Positions 9,576 through 28,139 of a DNA stretch of 28,139 bases are shown piece by piece. The notes under the pieces are model-generated. The model made no database searches, had not been told where the DNA came from, and saw nothing but the letters and a program-made list of their open reading frames with translations. Source of the DNA: a virus (Duplodnaviria; Heunggongvirae; Uroviricota; Caudoviricetes); IMG/VR virus record IMGVR_UViG_2744054909_000001; one strand, 5' to 3'. Each line of letters begins with the position of its first letter. The stretch's first letter is position 1. Position numbers and translations under genes: made by a program.

Positions 9576-9768
9576 TTTCAAATCCAACGACAGACGGCTG
9601 GCATTTAAGTATTGTGAAATATTATCAAATGTAATCATCATTGATTTACAAAAGATACATTTTGCCCCGAAAGGATTCATGTCAGAAACATCAAAAGATG
9701 ATGTTCTATACTGGGAACCATGACAACACGGGCATCTAAAGTGAATATGGTTTGTAATATTGTCTACC

Positions 9769-9981
9769 TCAAAGCGCCACTACATGAACAGCGGCAGGAC
9801 CTTTAGGTCCGTTCTCAATACCAAATTCAACTTCCTGATTCTCAGTTAATGTTTTGAAATCGTTGCTCTGAATTGCTGAGAAATGGACAAACACATCTTT
9901 GCTGCCATCTTTCGGCGTGATGAAACCAAAACCTTTTTCAGGGTTAAACCATTTCACTAAACCAGTCATTTTGTTAGACAT
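9769..9981 (-). CDS. cspI: Cold-shock protein CspI-like (70 aa)
   Basis: [70 protein letters not shown] is a CspA-family cold-shock domain. Confidence 0.9.
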
Positions 9982-10343
9982 AATTATTACCTTTTGAAGA
10001 AATTAGCCCTTGGGCAGAATGGTCCGAAAAAAAATATCAGAGAGAAAAACCAACAAGGAAATCTCAAGAGGTACAAATAATAAAATTATAACAATGACTG
10101 CTTCAGATAAATTTGTAACAAACCAGAACACCATTAACGCATGATTAACCACCCATAGCAAGGATTACTTTTGTAAAGAAAAACACAGCAATGAAAGAAT
10201 AGCTTTATTTATTAATAAAACGTGTCATTCTGATTAAGACCTTTTATCTTACCCTTAAGATTTCAGGAATTTTGGCTCATGGAAGAGTCCTTTTTATTTA
10301 AATTTTACATTCCGCGATGTAAATGTTCCGATTTAATATTACC

Positions 10344-12372: not shown

Positions 12373-12652
12373 AGATTGTGGTGCTTTTTGTGGGAGTCAT
12401 CCACTTACGCACTTTGTTTTGCCATGCCAGCAGTTAGCTTCTGCTGTAAAACTATTCATGCAGCAAACCTGCACTTCACCACAATGGTTAGCATACTTTT
12501 CCTGATTAAGATTTTGCCAAATATGCTAGCCATTGTTTCATGTATTGGACCTCCTTACTTTTTATTAAAGAGATCCAATATTCACTACTCTGTCCGTATC
12601 TCTACTCAGGCATCAGCCTTCTTCGTTATCGTATACAGACGAGCGATGAATT

Positions 12653-12868
12653 TTAATCAGTAATGATGACATTTGCTGCTGCAGGACCTTTAGCACCACT
12701 CTCTATAGAGAAGGTAACCTTTTGACCTTCAAATAAGGTTCGATAATTATCATTCTGAATCGCAGAAAAATGCACAAACACATCTTTACTACCATCAACA
12801 GGAGAAATAAAGCCGAAACCTTTATCAGCGTTAAACCATTTTACTAAACCAGTCATTTTATTTGACAT
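12653..12868 (-). CDS. cspB: Cold-shock protein CspB-like (71 aa)
   Basis: [71 protein letters not shown]. Confidence 0.9.
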
Positions 12869-13168
12869 TCTACATTCCTTAACTTGAGCCTTTCGGCATA
12901 AATGGTTTGCATAACAGAAACGACTTCGTACTTAATTGGAGAGACTCAAAGAAGGAATAAGTGAATAACACCTGAAATGAGAACTGCTTTAGTAAACTAC
13001 TTCGTATATCGTCTGTTCTTCAAACCGACGCAATCATTAACGCATAGTTGAACATATGAAGCAATGTTTATTTTAGACATCCAGCCATCTTCAACCCCAT
13101 CAAAAAACTATAGCTTTCTTCAGGAACGTGTGTATAGTGCGCCAAGTTATCAGTATTAAGGAATTTTT

Positions 13169-18512: not shown

Positions 18513-19826
18513 TCAATCTTTTTTATCGGGATCAGGCTTCTTTTTAGATAACTTCGGGGGCTTAACTTGCTGATGACTTTGCGTTCGGCGCGTAAGCCAG
18601 GGATGGTCAGCTTTAGGTTTAACATAGTATTTTGAGCGTAAATCAATACGGGCATTATCCACTCGTTCATGGACACTCTTTTCATCATCCAGTGGTATAG
18701 GCTCCGGGCCATCAACATACTTTTCCCAGCCCAGCGCTTTCCCGTCATACAGAACGTTAATTTCACCGTCAAAGTTCTCGCATACAGTAACAACCGAATG
18801 CCTAAGTCGATATCCCCGGCCCTCACTGCGTACCTGAAACGCACTGCTTTTGTACTGGAAAGTGAGATTTTTAGACAGAACGCGCTTCGCCTGTAGGCTG
18901 AAGATATAACCCAGTTCCTCTTCAGAATGGTGCACATCAAGATGAGCATTATCAGTAGTACGAGGCGACGTAGCGAACCGGTTGTTATAGGCTTCAATAA
19001 AGGTCGGCAACCATGCATTTGCTGTTTCAATATCACTGATATTCTGAAGCCGCATTTCTTTGACCAGCCTGTCCTGTAGTGTCTGATTGGCGCGCTCTAC
19101 CCGCCCTTTTGCCTGCGGGCTGTTGGCATGGATTGGCTCGATGCCCAGTGTCTTTATCGCACGAGTGAACTGGGTCAGCTCACCTTCCCGCTCTGGGTTA
19201 TTTACCCTGAATATACTGTGTCTATCAGAGTAGAGAGCGAGCGGTACGCCATGATCATTAAGGTAACCCCGGAGGGTTTCCATGTAAGCCCGGGTTGTTT
19301 CAGCAGGCACAAAACGCAACGCCATCAACGCACTGGTGGCATCATCAATGAAAACGATCAGTGTACATCTGGGGCCTCGATTTTCAAACCAGTCATGAGG
19401 TGAGCCATCAATCTGGATCAGTTCACCGTAAGATGGTCGTCGCATGCGGCGTTGATATATACGGGCAATTTTACGACGGCGTTCACGCCATAACCCCTCT
19501 TCTATCATCCACTTTCTGAGAGTTTCAACGGATAAAGATAAACCGTGTATCTCGCGCAATTTTTCGCACGCAAACGTAGGTCCAAAATCAGCGTAACGGC
19601 CTTTGAGGAGTGAAATTACTGTTGCTCTGAATTCAGCAGAAAAGGAATTATTAGGACGCTTTCCACGTCGGTGGGAAACCAGACCAGAAGGCCCTTCATT
19701 TCTATACCGTTGCACCAGACGTTTAACCTGCCGAATAGAAATGCCAATGCGTGCCGCAGCTTGTTCCTGAATAATCTGAAGTCGGTGGAGTTCCTTATGA
19801 CTCATCGTAACAGTCTCTTTGATCAT
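18513..19826 (-). CDS. DDE transposase with N-terminal HTH and rve (integrase-core) domain, 437 aa
   Basis: Catalytic region ..IQIDGSPHDWF.. / ..LYSDRHSIF.. / ..SPQAKGRVERANQTLQDRL.. is the D-D-E (retroviral-integrase-like) signature; size and architecture suggest IS481 or ISNCY family. GGGGGA ribosome-binding site before the first ATG. Confidence 0.8.
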   Translation of the reverse strand: MIKETVTMSHKELHRLQIIQEQAAARIGISIRQVKRLVQRYRNEGPSGLVSHRRGKRPNNSFSAEFRATVISLLKGRYADFGPTFACEKLREIHGLSLSVETLRKWMIEEGLWRERRRKIARIYQRRMRRPSYGELIQIDGSPHDWFENRGPRCTLIVFIDDATSALMALRFVPAETTRAYMETLRGYLNDHGVPLALYSDRHSIFRVNNPEREGELTQFTRAIKTLGIEPIHANSPQAKGRVERANQTLQDRLVKEMRLQNISDIETANAWLPTFIEAYNNRFATSPRTTDNAHLDVHHSEEELGYIFSLQAKRVLSKNLTFQYKSSAFQVRSEGRGYRLRHSVVTVCENFDGEINVLYDGKALGWEKYVDGPEPIPLDDEKSVHERVDNARIDLRSKYYVKPKADHPWLTRRTQSHQQVKPPKLSKKKPDPDKKD

Positions 19827-20160
19827 GAAAAATCCCCCAGAGAATTGTCTGGGGACATTTTAGAATGGTTCAAAGGGGACATTACAGCTTGGTGTTAACA
19901 ATAGCCTGCTTCTCCGTGCCTTTCGGCACGTAAGAGGCTAACCTACATGTGTCTAGCATGAAATTGGCCTCAGATTAATGTTAAGCGTCTTGCAGGACGC
20001 GTAATGTTAACTGGGGCTTTTCTCTATCTGCCGTTGGTGTCCATGCCCGAGGCAGATAGCCTCAAGCACCCGCAGTCATTCTACTTAACTAAGATTTCCC
20101 CGCAAACCGTTTTTGTCCAGCACAGTAAATATCCAACTAAACCAATGGAGTTCGCTGTAT

Positions 20161-24073: not shown

Positions 24074-24481
24074 ATGGAAACAAAAAATTTAACTATCGGC
24101 GAACGCATCAGGTATCGTCGGAAAAACCTCAAACACACCCAAAGGTCTCTTGCTAAAGCCCTGAAAATCTCCCATGTGTCTGTATCACAATGGGAACGGG
24201 GTGATAGTGAACCTACAGGGAAGAACCTTTTTGCCCTCAGCAAAGTATTGCAATGCTCACCAACATGGATTCTATTTGGCGATGAAGACAAGCAACCAAC
24301 ACCACCTGTTGAGAAGCCAGTTGCCTTATCCCCCAAAGAACTAGAGCTCCTTGAGCTGTTTAATGCACTGCCAGAATCAGAACAGGATACCCAGCTCGCC
24401 GAAATGCGAGCTCGAGTAAAAAACTTCAATAAACTCTTTGAAGAATTACTAAAAGCCCGTCAGCGGACAAATAAAAGATAA
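24074..24481 (+). CDS. dicA: DicA, cI-like HTH repressor (135 aa)
   Basis: METKNLTIGERIRYRRKNLKHTQRSLAKALKISHVSVSQWERGDSEPTGKNLFALSKVLQCSPTWILFGDED.. is a Xre/cI-type HTH. Confidence 0.95.
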   Translation: METKNLTIGERIRYRRKNLKHTQRSLAKALKISHVSVSQWERGDSEPTGKNLFALSKVLQCSPTWILFGDEDKQPTPPVEKPVALSPKELELLELFNALPESEQDTQLAEMRARVKNFNKLFEELLKARQRTNKR

Positions 24482-24647
24482 CATCATCAATGAGTTATCT
24501 TTTACCACATCAATTATGTTAGCTATAGCATACAAAATCACTTGACCGATATGTTAGTCATGGCTAATCTTGTTTGCATCAACACACCGCACGGTGTTCT
24601 CAGCAAACAGTTCCGCTACCCCAGCGTTAAGGGGAAATGAGGTCAGC

Positions 24648-24803
24648 ATGGATACTATCGATCTTGGCAACAACGAATCTCTGGTGTACGGCGTGTTTCC
24701 AAACCAGGACGGCACGTTCACCGCAATGACGTATACCAAAAGCAAAACGTTTAAAACCGAAAATGGTGCCCGTCGCTGGCTGGAAAGAAACTCAGGTGAG
24801 TGA
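24648..24803 (+). CDS. ydfA: YdfA-like small protein (51 aa)
   Basis: MDTIDLGNNESLVYGVFPNQDGTFTAMTYTKSKTFKTENGARRWLERNSGE; ribosome-binding site AAGGGGAAATGAGG upstream. Confidence 0.85.
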   Translation: MDTIDLGNNESLVYGVFPNQDGTFTAMTYTKSKTFKTENGARRWLERNSGE

Positions 24804-24804
24804 T

Positions 24805-24933
24805 ATGGATTTCGACACAATCATGGAAAAGGCTTACGAAGAATACTTCGAAGGCCTTGCCGAAGGCGAAGAAGCTCTCAGCTTCAGTGAGTTTAAACAG
24901 GCGCTTTCCAGTTCGGCAAAATCTAACGGCTGA
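24805..24933 (+). CDS. ydfB: YdfB-like small protein (42 aa)
   Basis: Hand translation: MDFDTIMEKAYEEYFEGLAEGEEALSFSEFKQALSSSAKSNG; starts 2 nt after the ydfA stop. Confidence 0.8.
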   Translation: MDFDTIMEKAYEEYFEGLAEGEEALSFSEFKQALSSSAKSNG

Positions 24934-24962
24934 TAAGCGAAACAGCACCGCGAGGAATCAGT

Positions 24963-25181
24963 ATGCAGAAACGAGAACCCGTCATCATCGCGCCAGACTA
25001 TACCGATGATGAACTTTATGAGTGGATGCGCCAGAAAATTAATGCAGCGCAGGATCTGAAATGGGCTAATGAAGCCAGGGCTAAGCAGGCTGAAAATCTG
25101 TCCGCTCTGGAGCAGGATATCACCAATCTGGAAAAAGCAGCGGCATTAAGCATTGCCAGAATGATTACATACCCGCGTTAG
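24963..25181 (+). CDS. ydfC: YdfC-like protein (72 aa)
   Basis: MQKREPVIIAPDYTDDELYEWMRQKINAAQDLKWANEARAKQAENLSALEQDITNLEKAAALSIARMITYPR. Confidence 0.85.
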   Translation: MQKREPVIIAPDYTDDELYEWMRQKINAAQDLKWANEARAKQAENLSALEQDITNLEKAAALSIARMITYPR

Positions 25182-25521
25182 TAGCTAATCAACAAAGCTA
25201 AGGTTAGTAATTAAGGAGTTCTCCACGGGTGAGGTGGAGTGCGTGCGCCGGACACGGGTGCGCATCCGGAACTGACAGTTTACTGAAAGGATATTTCCCT
25301 GAAAAGTCAGACCATAACGCGAAAGCGCACGGCGAGGTAGCTGGTTCATAGATAGCCTGTCGTTAAATTTTCGTCGACCGTGCGCTTCCGGTTGTGGCAA
25401 CCCGCGAAATGGCGCGGCGGTAAGTATGGCGGGGTTATTCCTTCCCCGTTGAGGACACCGGGTTGTCAGGTTGACCATACGCTTAAGTGACAACCCCGCT
25501 GCAACGCCCTCTGTTATCAAT

Positions 25522-25574
25522 TTTCTGGTGACGTTTGGCGGTATCAGTTTTACTCCGTGACTGCTCTGCCGCCC
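25522..25574 (+). ncRNA. dicF: DicF small regulatory RNA (53 nt; Hfq-dependent sRNA that represses ftsZ translation)
   Basis: TTTCTGGTGACGTTTGGCGGTATCAGTTTTACTCCGTGACTGCTCTGCCGCCC followed by TTTTT matches the DicF sequence as I recall it, with its terminator hairpin; it is processed from the ydfABC-dicF-dicB transcript. Confidence 0.85.
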
Positions 25575-25748
25575 TTTTTAAAGTGAATTTTGTGATGTGG
25601 TGAATGCGGCTGAGCGCACGCGGAACAGTTAAAACCAAAAACAGTGTTATGGGTGGATTCTCTGTATCCGGCGTTAATTGTTAACTGGTTAACGTCACCT
25701 GGAGGCACCAGGCACTGCATCACAAAATTCATTGTTGAGGACGCGATA

Positions 25749-25937
25749 ATGAAAACGTTATTACCAAACGTTAATACGTCTGAAGGTTGTTTTGAAATTG
25801 GTGTCACTATCAGTAACCCAGTATTTACTGAAGATGCCATTAACAAGAGAAAACAAGAACGGGAGCTATTAAATAAAATATGCATTGTTTCAATGCTGGC
25901 TCGTTTACGTCTGATGCCAAAAGGATGTGCACAATGA
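25749..25937 (+). CDS. dicB: DicB cell-division inhibitor (62 aa; acts with MinC)
   Basis: MKTLLPNVNTSEGCFEIGVTISNPVFTEDAINKRKQERELLNKICIVSMLARLRLMPKGCAQ. Confidence 0.9.
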   Translation: MKTLLPNVNTSEGCFEIGVTISNPVFTEDAINKRKQERELLNKICIVSMLARLRLMPKGCAQ

Positions 25938-26125
25938 ATTCAGCATTTGTGCTTGTTCTGACAGTTTTTCTTGTTTCCGGAGAGCCAGTTGATATTGCAG
26001 TCAGTGTTCACAGGACAATGCAGGAGTGTATGACTGCAGCAACCGAACAGAAAATTCCCGGTAACTGTTACCCGGTCGATAAAGTTATTCACCAGGATAA
26101 TATCGAAATCCCGGCAGGTCTTTAA
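25934..26125 (+). CDS. ydfD: YdfD-like lysis protein (63 aa, N-terminal transmembrane helix)
   Basis: MNSAFVLVLTVFLVSGEPVDIAVSVHRTMQECMTAATEQKIPGNCYPVDKVIHQDNIEIPAGL; ATGA overlap with dicB. Confidence 0.85.
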   Translation: MNSAFVLVLTVFLVSGEPVDIAVSVHRTMQECMTAATEQKIPGNCYPVDKVIHQDNIEIPAGL

Positions 26126-26217
26126 AACAGTTCCGTAATAAATATCCGGTTTCATTCTTATATGCCAGCAATGGCAGGGATTTGTTCATCCTTAAATCTG
26201 TCATGAGGTTAAAACAA

Positions 26218-28029
26218 ATGAGTAAAGTCTTTATTTGCGCCGCTATTCCTGACGAACTGGCAACAAGGGAAGAAGGCGCTGTGGCTGTAGCCACAGCCAT
26301 TGAAGCTGGCGACGAACGCCGTGCTCGAGCAAAATTTCACTGGCAATTCCTGGAACATTATCCGGCTGCTCAGGACTGCGCTTATAAATTTATTGTCTGC
26401 GAGGATAAACCTGGCATACCCCGCCCTGCCCTCGATTCATGGGATGCTGAATATATGCAGGAAAACCGCTGGGATGAGGAGTCTGCTTCTTTTGTCCCGG
26501 TTGAGACTGAATCCGATCCGATGAACGTCACTTTTGACAAGCTGGCCCCTGAAGTACAGAACGCTGTCATGGTTAAGTTCGACACATGTGAAAACATCAC
26601 CGTTGATATGGTTATTAGCGCACAGGAATTGTTGCAGGAAGACATGGCAACATTCGACGGACATATCGTTGAAGCGTTGATGAAAATGCCAGAAGTTAAC
26701 GCCATGTATCCGGAGCTTAAGTTGCACGCCATTGGGTGGGTTAAGCATAAATGTATTCCTGGTGCTAAATGGCCCGAAATTCAGGCAGAGATGCGCATCT
26801 GGAAAAAACGTCGCGAAGGTGAACGCAAGGAAACCGGAAAATACACGTCTGTTGTTGATCTCGCCCGCGCCAGAGCCAATCAACAGTACACTGAAAATTC
26901 AACAGGAAAAATCAGCCCGGTCATTGCTGCCATTCATCGCGAATACAAGCAGACATGGAAAACACTGGATGACGAACTGGCCTACGCTCTCTGGCCTAGT
27001 GATGTGGATGCCGGAAACATTGACGGCAGCATCCATCGCTGGGCAAAAAAAGAAGTTATCGACAACGACCGCGAAGACTGGAAGCGTATCTCGGCATCAA
27101 TGCGCAAACAGCCTGATGCCCTTCGCTACGACCGCCAAACTATTTTTGGCCTTGTCCGTGAGCGTCCGATCGACATTCACAAAGATCCCGTAGCACTGAA
27201 CAAATATATCTGCGAATACCTGACGACAAAGGGCGTGTTTGAGAATGAAGAAACAGACCTGGGCACTGTTGATGTTCTCCAGTCATCAGAAACACAAACT
27301 GATGCAGTGGAAACTGAGGTATCTGATATCCCAAAAAATGAAACCGCGCCGGAAGCTGAACCATCTGTAGAGCGTGAGGGGCCGTTCTATTTCCTCTTCG
27401 CAGATAAGGACGGAGAAAAATACGGTCGCGCAAACAAACTCTCTGGTCTGGATAAGGCACTGGCTGCTGGCGCCACTGAAATCACAAAAGAAGAATATTT
27501 TGCCCGAAAAAATGGCACATACACGGGCTTACCGCAAAATGTAGATACCGCTGAAGATTCAGAACAACCAGAGCCGATAAAAGTTACCGCTGACGAAGTA
27601 AACAAAATTATGCAGGCAGCCAATATCAGCCAGCCTGACGCCGATAAGTTGCTTGCTGCATCACGTGGTGAATTTGTTGAAGGGATTAGTGACCCGAATG
27701 ATCCGAAATGGGTTAAGGGGCTCCAGACCCGCGATTCTGTGAACCAGAACCAGCATGAATCGGAACGGAACTACCAAAAAGCGGAACAAAACAGTCCAAA
27801 TGCGTTACAAAACGAGCCAGAAACGAAACAGCCTGAACCAGTAGCGCAACAGGAAGTGGAAAAAGTCTGCACCGCCTGCGGTCAGACCGGCGGCGGCAAC
27901 TGCCCTGATTGTGGCGCGGTGATGGGCGACGCAACATACCAAGAAACATTCGATGAAGAGTATCAGGTTGAAGTTCAGGAAGATGATCCGGAGGAAATGG
28001 AAGGCGCTGAACTGATCCTACCCACGTAA
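26218..28029 (+). CDS. ydfE: YdfE-like large acidic protein with C-terminal zinc ribbon, 3' end disrupted by IS3 (603 aa as read)
   Basis: ORF 26182-28029; start assigned to the Met preceded by GAGG. Highly acidic, with CTACGQTGGGNCPDCGAVMGD near the C-terminus. The last 17 nt and the stop codon lie inside the IS3 terminal repeat, so the native C-terminus is missing. Confidence 0.7.
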   Translation: MSKVFICAAIPDELATREEGAVAVATAIEAGDERRARAKFHWQFLEHYPAAQDCAYKFIVCEDKPGIPRPALDSWDAEYMQENRWDEESASFVPVETESDPMNVTFDKLAPEVQNAVMVKFDTCENITVDMVISAQELLQEDMATFDGHIVEALMKMPEVNAMYPELKLHAIGWVKHKCIPGAKWPEIQAEMRIWKKRREGERKETGKYTSVVDLARARANQQYTENSTGKISPVIAAIHREYKQTWKTLDDELAYALWPSDVDAGNIDGSIHRWAKKEVIDNDREDWKRISASMRKQPDALRYDRQTIFGLVRERPIDIHKDPVALNKYICEYLTTKGVFENEETDLGTVDVLQSSETQTDAVETEVSDIPKNETAPEAEPSVEREGPFYFLFADKDGEKYGRANKLSGLDKALAAGATEITKEEYFARKNGTYTGLPQNVDTAEDSEQPEPIKVTADEVNKIMQAANISQPDADKLLAASRGEFVEGISDPNDPKWVKGLQTRDSVNQNQHESERNYQKAEQNSPNALQNEPETKQPEPVAQQEVEKVCTACGQTGGGNCPDCGAVMGDATYQETFDEEYQVEVQEDDPEEMEGAELILPT

Positions 28030-28139
28030 TATGGACACAGGCCTAAGCGAGGTTCTTGTTTTCAAATTGTTCCGGACTGAGGCCGCCACACCAACTGTGC
28101 CGCCGCCACCGATTGTAATCACATTCGATATAATTAAAT
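28013..28139 (-). mobile_element. IS3 insertion sequence, right-end inverted repeat and 3' part (continues beyond window)
   Basis: TGATCCTACCCACGTAATATGGACACAGGCCTAAGCGAGG.. matches the IS3 terminal inverted repeat as I recall it. Confidence 0.8.
28043..28139 (-). CDS. insF: IS3 transposase OrfB (InsF) C-terminal fragment, partial
   Basis: Minus-strand hand translation ..[31 protein letters not shown] then stop (28043-28045) equals the IS3 InsF C-terminus. Confidence 0.8.

What the first reader, a model, noticed from the sequence alone, without database searches (positions are those of the whole stretch)
26218..28029. Large acidic zinc-ribbon protein (YdfE-like) at the end of the dicB operon, function unknown, cut by IS3
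This roughly 600-aa protein sits in the leftward early operon right after dicB and ydfD, the position where lambdoid phages carry recombination, host-takeover and anti-defence genes. It is strongly acidic with a C-terminal C-x2-C-x8-C-x2-C zinc ribbon and no catalytic motif I recognise. As I recall, the K-12 homologue ydfE is interrupted by IS2; here a different element (IS3) enters the 3' end. Independent IS hits on the same gene could reflect selection against the intact product (toxicity) or simply a hot spot. An acidic zinc-ribbon protein in this position is a plausible DNA-mimic or anti-restriction candidate.
Basis: partly seen in the sequence, partly recalled or inferred. Interest (0 to 1): 0.6.

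Follow-up and report, generated by a model that had tools for sequence, protein, structure and literature searches.

The report
IS3-truncated Qin prophage exonuclease gene
The "acidic zinc-ribbon protein" is the first 598 codons of a common 823-codon E. coli prophage exonuclease gene (the intact form of K-12 ydfE), cut off from its catalytic domain by an IS3 insertion; it is an ordinary prophage pseudogene.

Summary
The ORF is real: ATG 26218 to TAA 28029, 603 aa, pI 4.6, net charge -49. The IS3 terminal repeat begins at 28013. Codons 1-598 are native and the last five (LILPT) are read from IS3.

The zinc ribbon is C-x2-C-x7-C-x2-C, not x8. It is not the protein's natural C-terminus.

The DNA up to 28012 is 100% identical to an intact 823-codon gene in E. 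coli C and many other strains. RefSeq calls that gene "exonuclease" or "3'-5' exonuclease". The missing 225 codons encode a His-rich linker and a DEDDh (Pfam Rv2179c-like) exonuclease domain.

K-12 ydfE is the first 256 codons of the same gene, cut by IS2. The retained part carries Pfam YdfE_N and YdfE_C. Residues 262-598 are homologous to the non-catalytic region of RecE, whose function is unknown.

Uninterrupted full-length copies are the norm: 41 of 60 sampled records, and 3537 of 5426 genomes hold at least 80% of the gene. Selection against the intact product is therefore not supported.

Nothing supports a DNA mimic. No informative fold match was found, and about three quarters of the negative charge sits in predicted disordered linkers.

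Verdict: an already annotated, IS-disrupted prophage exonuclease gene of low interest. Related proteins fuse the same N-terminal module to different recombination enzymes.

The parts
26218..28012 (+). Native 5' portion of the Qin-prophage exonuclease gene (ydfE orthologue): codons 1-598 plus one base, out of 823 codons
   Evidence: 0 mismatches in 1795 nt against the intact gene of E. coli C. PHROG 2082 'exonuclease', E=0, positions 1-598 of 823. Precomputed Pfam YdfE_N + YdfE_C.
28013..28139 (.). End of IS3, starting with the terminal inverted repeat TGATCCTACCCACG... and running off the window. The transposase lies on the minus strand relative to the gene.
   Evidence: Matches the IS3 copies in K-12 gatR and in melB at every aligned base. 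rve_2 fragment called on the minus strand in the public contig.
28012..28029 (+). Five IS3-encoded codons (LILPT) and a TAA stop that terminate the truncated frame
   Evidence: Translation ends ...EMEGAE-LILPT*, while the intact allele continues ...EMEGAE-HPHKEN.
26218..27246 (+). Predicted folded N-terminal region, residues 1-343 (about YdfE_N): alpha/beta domain 1-96, helical 101-206, helical 245-343
27001..28011 (+). Residues 262-598, homologous to the non-catalytic region of RecE (RecE 278-564)
   Evidence: BLASTP 38% identity, E=2e-52, near-identical from residue 474 on. With the intact allele the homology continues to residue 627 = RecE 592. NCBIfam PRK09709 partial hit, 251.9 bits.
27379..27513 (+). 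Small predicted beta-beta-alpha-beta-alpha domain, residues 388-432
   Evidence: AF2 pLDDT about 85. Conserved among distant homologues.
27691..27711 (+). DPxDPxW motif (DPNDPKW, residues 492-498), in a segment predicted with low confidence
   Evidence: Present in 22 of 54 family representatives, including RecE-type ones. pLDDT about 53-65 in the 10-residue blocks around it.
27868..27912 (+). Zinc-ribbon-like motif C551-x2-C554-x7-C562-x2-C565
   Evidence: Regex on the translation. Conserved in K-12 RecE (CNACGQTGGDNCPDC). Present in only 9 of 54 representatives. AF2 confidence low, about 55.
27922..28011 (+). Acidic tail, residues 569-598 (13 D/E, 0 K/R), which in intact proteins is the linker to the nuclease domain
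   Evidence: Charge count. pLDDT below 50. Conserved with RecE 535-564.
25523..26125 (+). Upstream genes of the same operon: DicF RNA (25523-25574), dicB (25749-25937), ydfD (25934-26125)
   Evidence: Rfam DicF. RefSeq annotation of identical DNA in E. coli C and NR2550. Window 24074-28012 is identical to E. coli C.

Best explanation
The ORF is the 5' 73% of the exonuclease gene of a Qin-type lambdoid prophage. This is the last gene of the DicA-repressed dicB operon and lies just upstream of xis-int. An IS3 insertion truncates it after codon 598.

The intact 823-aa protein has these parts:
- a non-catalytic N-terminal region (Pfam YdfE_N + YdfE_C), with predicted folded domains at 1-96, 101-206, 245-343 and 388-432, separated by acidic disordered linkers
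- a CxxC-x7-CxxC zinc-ribbon-like motif
- an acidic, His-rich linker
- a C-terminal DEDDh 3'-5' exonuclease domain (Rv2179c-like, related to T4 DexA)

The window copy lacks the linker and the whole catalytic domain. If it is made when DicA repression is lifted, its 603-aa product cannot be a nuclease.

Shown: the identity with intact alleles, the junction, the domain content, the homology to RecE and the module shuffling.

Inferred by analogy with RecE: the retained region is an accessory part. In RecE the equivalent region is dispensable for nuclease activity and recombination, but it enhances linear-linear recombination. The 3'-5' exonuclease activity of the intact protein is also inferred, from family membership and motif residues. 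It has not been measured.
For: - 100% DNA identity to intact alleles up to nt 28012. The closest genomes carry an intact 823-aa 'exonuclease' or '3'-5' exonuclease' followed by xis, int and rspB.
- Pfam Rv2179c-like, E=2.4e-67, on residues 642-813 of the intact allele. PDB sequence hit to chains 8kel and 8ken, 'Exodeoxyribonuclease'; that these are T4 DexA is from memory. The DEDDh residues lie beyond the cut.
- IS3 end confirmed.
- K-12 ydfE is codons 1-256 of the same gene, followed by IS2.
- RecE homology over residues 262-627.
- PHROG 2082, 'exonuclease'.
- The same N-part is found fused to a RecE-type PD-(D/E)XK domain (P0001, 900 aa). RecE's own N-terminus is found fused to the DEDDh domain (P0206).
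- The exact 603-aa product is on record as 'exonuclease, partial' on 20 contigs, and every contig examined stops in IS3.
Against: - The window ends inside IS3, so the displaced 3' part of the gene and the target-site duplication were not seen.
- A deletion beyond the IS cannot be excluded.
- No biochemistry exists for this protein or for the Qin-type DEDDh enzyme in the papers searched.
- The accessory role of the N-terminal region rests on analogy with RecE, which shares only residues 262 onward.
- Residues 1-260 are not RecE-like: no hit to Pfam Exonuc_VIII.
Confidence: 0.88

Rival explanations
1. The N-terminal YdfE_N/YdfE_C region is an autonomous functional unit, for example a host-protein or DNA-end binding platform or an anti-defence factor. 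On this view the IS-truncated product keeps a biological activity and is not a dead pseudogene.
For: - The module is conserved across Enterobacterales prophages and is combined with at least three unrelated C-terminal domains.
- It has well-predicted folded domains.
- It carries a conserved DPxDPxW motif in a low-confidence segment, in 22 of 54 representatives.
- The truncated frame keeps its start and ribosome-binding site within an intact operon.
- Full-length RecE does something the nuclease domain alone does not.
Against: - No stand-alone full-length gene with only this module was identified. The short forms seen are contig-end partials or IS truncations.
- No fold or family match suggests an activity.
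- Truncation sites differ widely, at codons 256, about 421, about 443 and 598. This looks like random disruption rather than a selected domain boundary.
Confidence: 0.15
2. One reading: an acidic DNA-mimic, anti-restriction or anti-defence protein.
For: - Overall pI 4.58 and net charge -49.
- It sits in the early-left operon, where lambdoid phages carry accessory genes.
Against: - About 37 of the net negative charges lie in predicted disordered linkers (344-387, 433-548, 569-598). The folded domains are near neutral apart from domain 1, at -9.
- In intact alleles the region is the N-terminal part of a nuclease and is homologous to RecE's non-catalytic region.
Confidence: 0.04
3. Repeated IS insertions reflect selection against a toxic intact product.
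For: Four independent IS insertions were found in this gene:
- IS2 at nt 767 (K-12)
- an IS3-family element at about nt 1263 (strain VG888-46E9)
- IS1203 at about nt 1329 (strain 109)
- IS3 at nt 1795 (this window)

Against: - 3537 of 5426 complete genomes hold at least 80% of the gene.
- In an even sample of 60 matching records, 41 have an uninterrupted full-length alignment and only 1 has an IS inside a full-length copy. Four more are K-12 lab derivatives.
- The intact 823-aa cluster has 23183 member sequences.
- O157 and O26 genomes carry several matching places each.
- The operon is repressed by DicA (established knowledge), so there is little expression to select against.
Confidence: 0.05
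4. The lost C-terminal domain was the RecE-type PD-(D/E)XK 5'-3' nuclease (the 900-aa variant) and not the DEDDh domain.
For: Proteins of 900 aa that are 99% identical over residues 1-598 carry PF12684 and a C-terminus resembling that of K-12 RecE.
Against: - The window is 100% identical at DNA level, from dicA to the junction (3939 nt), to E. coli C, which carries the DEDDh form.
- The genomes closest over the rest of the window also carry the DEDDh form at the rspB attachment site.
- The 900-aa variants differ at several residues, for example S261G, R483H and L502I.
Confidence: 0.07

Closest known systems
Intact Qin-type prophage exonuclease of E. coli (e.g. WP_081508834.1 in E. coli C; RefSeq names 'exonuclease' and '3'-5' exonuclease'; PHROG 2082)
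   Same: Identical DNA and protein over codons 1-598, the same operon position after dicB-ydfD, and the same prophage.
   Different: The window copy lacks codons 599-823 (His-rich linker plus DEDDh domain) and ends in 5 IS3-encoded residues.
K-12 ydfE (b1577), pseudogene of cryptic prophage Qin
   Same: The same gene at the same locus, 256 of 257 aa identical, also IS-disrupted.
   Different: K-12 is cut by IS2E at codon 257 and has lost the rest of the gene. Here IS3 cuts at codon 598, so the RecE-like middle region and the zinc ribbon are retained.
RecE (exodeoxyribonuclease VIII) of Rac prophage
   Same: Residues 262-627 of the intact allele align with RecE 278-592. This covers the helical domain, the DPNDPKW motif, the zinc ribbon and the acidic/His-rich linker, and runs up to just before the nuclease domain. 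The position in the early-left operon before xis-int is analogous.
   Different: - The first 260 residues are unrelated to RecE's Pfam Exonuc_VIII domain.
- The native catalytic domain is a DEDDh 3'-5' exonuclease and not a PD-(D/E)XK 5'-3' nuclease.
- No recT follows the gene.
- The NCBIfam RecE equivalog scores 252 bits against a cut-off of 1269.
T4 DexA / Rv2179c-like DEDDh exonucleases
   Same: The catalytic domain of the intact allele belongs to this family: Pfam E=2.4e-67 and PDB chain 8kel_A, 'Exodeoxyribonuclease', E=1.6e-6. That 8kel is T4 DexA is from memory.
   Different: That domain is absent from the window ORF. Those enzymes are small single-domain proteins without the 640-aa N-terminal extension.
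DNA-mimic anti-restriction proteins (T7 Ocr, ArdA)
   Same: Strongly acidic overall.
   Different: No sequence or fold similarity. The acidity is concentrated in predicted disordered linkers, and the region is part of a nuclease in intact alleles.

Membership tests
Qin-type prophage exonuclease (PHROG 2082; YdfE_N + YdfE_C + Rv2179c-like) | N-terminal YdfE_N and YdfE_C regions | tested here: met
   PHROG 2082, E=0, over positions 1-598 of 823. Precomputed Pfam PF27430 and PF27432 on the exact product; their names come.
Qin-type prophage exonuclease (PHROG 2082; YdfE_N + YdfE_C + Rv2179c-like) | C-terminal DEDDh exonuclease domain with its catalytic residues | tested here: not met
   The window frame stops at codon 603 inside IS3. 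The domain (residues 642-813; D646, E648, D746, H796, D801) exists only in intact alleles. The window gene is therefore a truncated allele and not a functional member.
Qin-type prophage exonuclease (PHROG 2082; YdfE_N + YdfE_C + Rv2179c-like) | Synteny dicA - ydfABC - DicF - dicB - ydfD - exonuclease - xis - int | tested here: inconclusive
   The upstream half is present and identical to E. coli C. The downstream half lies beyond the window end.
RecE / exodeoxyribonuclease VIII | NCBIfam equivalog PRK09709 above its cut-off | tested here: not met
   251.9 bits against a cut-off of 1269. Only model positions 271-575 match.
RecE / exodeoxyribonuclease VIII | Pfam Exonuc_VIII N-terminal domain (PF06630) | tested here: not met
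   No Pfam hit on the window protein. K-12 RecE and SPN3UB RecE hit it at E below 1e-97.
RecE / exodeoxyribonuclease VIII | PD-(D/E)XK nuclease domain (PF12684) | tested here: not met
   Absent from the window ORF and from the identical intact alleles. Present only in recombinant 900-aa variants.
RecE / exodeoxyribonuclease VIII | Shared middle region, zinc ribbon and linker | tested here: met
   BLASTP E=2e-52 over 262-598. Residues 474-598 are nearly identical to RecE 446-564.
Zinc ribbon | Two CxxC knuckles with a short spacer | tested here: met
   CTACGQTGGGNCPDC at residues 551-565, conserved in RecE.
Zinc ribbon | Metal binding and the ribbon fold | not testable with these tools
   AF2 pLDDT is only about 55 there. 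The motif is present in 9 of 54 representatives, so it is optional in the family.
DNA-mimic anti-restriction proteins (Ocr/ArdA type) | Folded domain whose surface carboxylates imitate the DNA backbone | tested here: not met
   No fold match. The folded domains carry net charges of -9, -3, -2 and +1. The disordered segments carry -12, -12 and -13.
DNA-mimic anti-restriction proteins (Ocr/ArdA type) | Inhibition of restriction or defence enzymes | not testable with these tools
   Needs experiments.
IS3 | Terminal inverted repeat and adjacent sequence | tested here: met
   Every aligned base from 28013 on matches the IS3 copies in K-12 gatR and in melB.
IS3 | Transposase genes and 3-bp target duplication | not testable with these tools
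   The window and all public contigs with this allele end inside the IS.

The most novel reading that the evidence does not exclude
The YdfE_N/YdfE_C region may be a portable, autonomous accessory module of phage recombination enzymes. Natural proteins fuse it to a 3'-5' DEDDh exonuclease, to a RecE-type 5'-3' nuclease or, in a large Enterobacterales clade, to what looks like a Rad52-like annealase.

If the module has its own activity (end tethering, host-factor recruitment or counter-defence), then IS-truncated alleles such as this one and K-12 ydfE would be natural 'module-only' constructs with residual function. Working out that activity would also explain why full-length RecE outperforms its nuclease domain in linear-linear recombination.
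Probability: 0.15. Interest if true: 0.5.

Novelty: already known. Interest (0 to 1): 0.17.

Why it matters
For this window it matters little. The ORF is a recognisable IS-disrupted allele of a gene that RefSeq already annotates, and the exact truncated product already has an accession (HBA4572445.1).

The corrected reading prevents a misannotation. The protein should not be listed as a stand-alone acidic zinc-ribbon protein or as an anti-restriction candidate.

The wider point is modest. The roughly 600-aa non-catalytic region shared by RecE-like prophage proteins still has no assigned function, and it is shuffled among different DNA-end-processing domains. That makes it a defined target for anyone studying why full-length RecE is better at linear-linear recombination.

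Tried and rejected
- **Local Pfam-A on the 603-aa product:** no hit. The YdfE_N and YdfE_C families are newer than the local copy and were seen only as precomputed labels.
- **PADLOC:** no hit for the truncated or the intact protein.
- **PDB sequence searches:** only the missing C-terminal domain matches. Nothing matched the sister-clade C-terminus, by single sequence or by profile.
- **Foldseek against PDB with the AF2 model of residues 1-598:** nothing below E=1.
- **hhalign of the sister-clade alignment against lactococcal phage ul36 ORF252 (annotated 'Erf-like ssDNA annealing protein'; known to me as Sak):** it aligned the expected signature helix, but at probability 0.2%, which is not significant.
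- **Search for the exact gene-IS3 junction in 5426 complete E. coli genomes:** none. The allele is known only from draft contigs.
- **Literature:** 'ydfE' gives only incidental mentions. 'RecE + DEDDh + prophage' gives nothing. 'Rv2179c + phage' gives nothing relevant. One search was wasted because 'full-length RecE' matched 'receptor'.
- **Promoter and terminator scan:** no more matches than in shuffled sequence.
Full report
**1. What is in the sequence**

The reading frame runs from ATG 26218 to TAA 28029 on the + strand. The ATG has GAGG 8 nt upstream. The product is 603 aa, pI 4.58, with 116 D+E against 67 K+R.

The only CxxC...CxxC motif is CTACGQTGGGNCPDC at residues 551-565.

The gene follows DicF RNA (25523-25574), dicB (25749-25937) and ydfD (25934-26125).

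From 28013 to the window end, every aligned base matches the end of the IS3 copies in K-12 gatR and in melB of another strain. The last five codons (LILPT) and the stop are therefore IS3 sequence.

**2. What the ORF is**

Megablast against 5426 complete E. coli genomes shows that window 26100-28012 is 100% identical to a gene that continues for another 225 codons in many strains. In E. coli C and in NR2550, the genome closest to the rest of the window, this is a 2472-nt CDS. RefSeq annotates it as 'exonuclease' or '3'-5' exonuclease'. It is followed by an excisionase, an integrase and the rspB attachment flank.

Window 24074-28012, from dicA to the junction, has 0 mismatches to E. coli C.

The missing part has two elements. 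The first is a 43-residue His/Asn-rich linker. The second is a domain at residues 642-813 that matches Pfam Rv2179c-like 3'-5' exoribonuclease (E=2.4e-67). By sequence it also matches PDB chains 8kel and 8ken, named 'Exodeoxyribonuclease'; from memory these are T4 DexA. The DEDDh residues D646, E648, D746, H796 and D801 all lie in this missing part.

PHROGs places the window product in phrog_2082, 'exonuclease', aligned to positions 1-598 of 823.

K-12 ydfE is the same gene. It is 256 of 257 aa identical and runs into IS2E after codon 256.

The exact 603-aa product is already public: HBA4572445.1, 'exonuclease, partial'. It occurs on 20 draft contigs. The three examined stop inside the IS3, and the longest is 28106 nt. 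No complete genome carries this junction. The window end is thus an assembly break in the IS, and the insertion is a real lineage allele.

**3. The retained 598 residues**

The precomputed Pfam labels are PF27430 (YdfE_N) and PF27432 (YdfE_C). The local Pfam copy predates these families and gives no hit.

Residues 262-598 align with K-12 RecE 278-564 (E=2e-52). With the intact allele the alignment extends to residue 627 = RecE 592, just before RecE's nuclease domain. Identity is very high from residue 474 on: the DPNDPKW motif, the zinc ribbon and the acidic linker.

Residues 1-260 are not RecE-like. RecE carries Pfam Exonuc_VIII at its N-terminus and this protein does not.

[quoted passage not shown] The IS3 here cuts at the residue equivalent to RecE 564. 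The ORF therefore corresponds to that unexplained non-catalytic region.

**4. Structure**

AlphaFold2 was run with a 60-sequence alignment and gave a mean pLDDT of 67.9.

| Segment | Prediction |
|---|---|
| 1-96 | confident alpha/beta domain |
| 101-206 | confident helical domain |
| 245-343 | confident helical domain |
| 388-432 | confident small beta-beta-alpha-beta-alpha domain |
| 344-384, 438-456, 499-548, 569-598 | pLDDT below 50 |
| zinc ribbon | pLDDT about 55 |

Net charge by segment:

| Segment | Net charge |
|---|---|
| folded 1-96 | -9 |
| folded 101-206 | -3 |
| folded 245-343 | -2 |
| folded 388-432 | +1 |
| linker 344-387 | -12 |
| linker 433-548 | -12 |
| tail 569-598 | -13 |

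The acidity is mostly linker acidity and not a DNA-shaped acidic surface. PADLOC gives no hit. The DNA-mimic and anti-restriction idea has no support beyond overall charge and genomic position.

**5. Family and mosaicism**

An exhaustive HMMER search of 1.84 billion representative proteins found only 243 clusters at E no higher than 1e-3. The named homologues are from Enterobacterales and their prophages.

A module-by-module BLAST against 54 representatives shows every combination:

- Qin-type N-terminus with DEDDh (this gene)
- Qin-type N-terminus with the RecE PD-(D/E)XK domain (P0001, 900 aa, 99% identical over residues 1-598)
- RecE N-terminus with DEDDh (P0206)
- RecE N-terminus with PD-(D/E)XK (K-12 RecE)

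The conserved zinc-ribbon and linker stretch is the obvious recombination joint. This is an inference.

The zinc ribbon is present in only 9 of the 54 representatives. DPxDPxW is present in 22.

**6. Are IS hits a sign of selection?**

Four independent insertions were found:

- IS2 at nt 767 (K-12)
- an IS3-family element at about nt 1263 (VG888-46E9)
- IS1203 at about nt 1329, in a different prophage at ompW (strain 109)
- IS3 at nt 1795 (this window)

Against that, 3537 of 5426 genomes hold at least 80% of the gene. In an even sample of 60 matching records, 41 show an uninterrupted full-length alignment and one shows an IS inside the gene. Four more are K-12 laboratory derivatives. The intact 823-aa cluster has 23183 member sequences.

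The scattered insertion sites and the dominance of intact copies fit ordinary decay of a repressed prophage gene. They do not fit counter-selection or a hot spot.

**7. Mechanism, with its basis**

- *Shown:* the gene is a truncated allele lacking the catalytic domain.
- *Inferred from family membership:* the intact protein is a 3'-5' exonuclease.
- *Inferred by analogy with RecE:* the retained part is a non-catalytic accessory region.
- *Not known:* what that region does, and whether the truncated product is made or stable.

**8. Side observation**

A large sister clade comprises 740-800-aa proteins of Enterobacter, Klebsiella, Kosakonia, Pantoea, Salmonella and others. NCBI names many of them 'exodeoxyribonuclease VIII'. 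They carry YdfE_N (most are also labelled YdfE_C) joined to a C-terminal domain of about 300 aa that has no nuclease family hit.

That C-terminal domain may be a Rad52-like annealase. Four things point that way:

- Its commonest sub-threshold Pfam hit is Rad52_Rad22, in 22 of 52 aligned members, best E=0.0044.
- AF2 predicts long beta-hairpins followed by a helix, then a coiled coil.
- The next gene encodes a Sipho_Gp157 protein. My recollection that this family accompanies phage recombination modules is from memory.
- hhalign lines the signature helix up with that of ul36 ORF252 (Sak), though not significantly.

The decisive fold comparison failed. If the domain is an annealase, the YdfE module accompanies three different recombination activities. 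That would favour a recombination-accessory role over an anti-restriction one.

**9. Verdict**

The feature is an already annotated, IS3-disrupted prophage exonuclease gene of low interest. The one open question is the function of the RecE-like non-catalytic region.

Noticed in passing
L008 2920-5052 (phage vB_SmeS_BUCT708); L011 5001-7412 (Kosakonia sacchari prophage); proteins P0208, P0342 and relatives: A large Enterobacterales clade fuses YdfE_N to a C-terminal domain of about 300 aa with no nuclease family hit. The domain looks Rad52-like: Pfam Rad52_Rad22 is the commonest sub-threshold hit (22 of 52 members, best E=0.0044), AF2 predicts beta-hairpins followed by a helix, and the next gene is Sipho_Gp157. 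NCBI names many of these proteins 'exodeoxyribonuclease VIII', which is probably a misnomer.
   Followed up: partly
proteins P0001 (900 aa) and P0206 (805 aa); K-12 RecE at L007 4787-7387 (-): Natural chimeras exist in both directions. One joins the Qin-type N-terminal 598 aa to RecE's PD-(D/E)XK nuclease. The other joins RecE's own N-terminal 277 aa (100% identical) to the DEDDh exonuclease (99%). The joint lies in the conserved zinc-ribbon and linker stretch.
   Followed up: partly
window 27691-27711 (residues 492-498, DPNDPKW): A DPxDPxW motif in a low-confidence segment is conserved in 22 of 54 family representatives, including RecE-type proteins. It is more widespread than the zinc ribbon (9 of 54). 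It is a candidate short linear binding motif.
   Followed up: no
cluster of P0012 / P0459: The 90%-identity cluster holding the window product (8590 members) also lists prophage integrases of 324-426 aa. This looks like a chaining artefact of the clustering, so cluster sizes for these partial proteins should not be read as allele counts.
   Followed up: no
L008 (OM816834.1, Stenotrophomonas phage vB_SmeS_BUCT708): This phage's YdfE_N protein is 88-93% identical to proteins from Klebsiella pneumoniae contigs and 74-77% identical to Salmonella ones. That is unexpected for a phage recorded as infecting Stenotrophomonas maltophilia.
   Followed up: no
window 9742-10127 (-), 12637-13029 (-), 19900-20071 (-), 25523-25574 (+): Rfam matches elsewhere in the prophage: two cspA thermoregulators (by comparison with NR2550, the leaders of cspI and cspB), a sok antitoxin RNA next to hokD, and DicF. 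By comparison with NR2550 the window also carries relBE, the lysis and Q genes and the head genes.
   Followed up: no
window about 18513-19826 (-): A 437-aa ORF. From the offset between the window and NR2550 it seems to correspond to the truncated ISNCY-family transposase annotated in NR2550 and E. coli C between ydfW and the replication genes. If so, it is a second mobile-element scar in the same prophage. The coordinate match was not checked directly.
   Followed up: no
L002 4932-6381 (strain Res13-Lact-ER02-39): In another lineage the same IS3 sits in dicB, two genes upstream, and leaves the exonuclease gene intact. IS3 insertions in this operon are therefore not confined to the exonuclease gene.
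   Followed up: no
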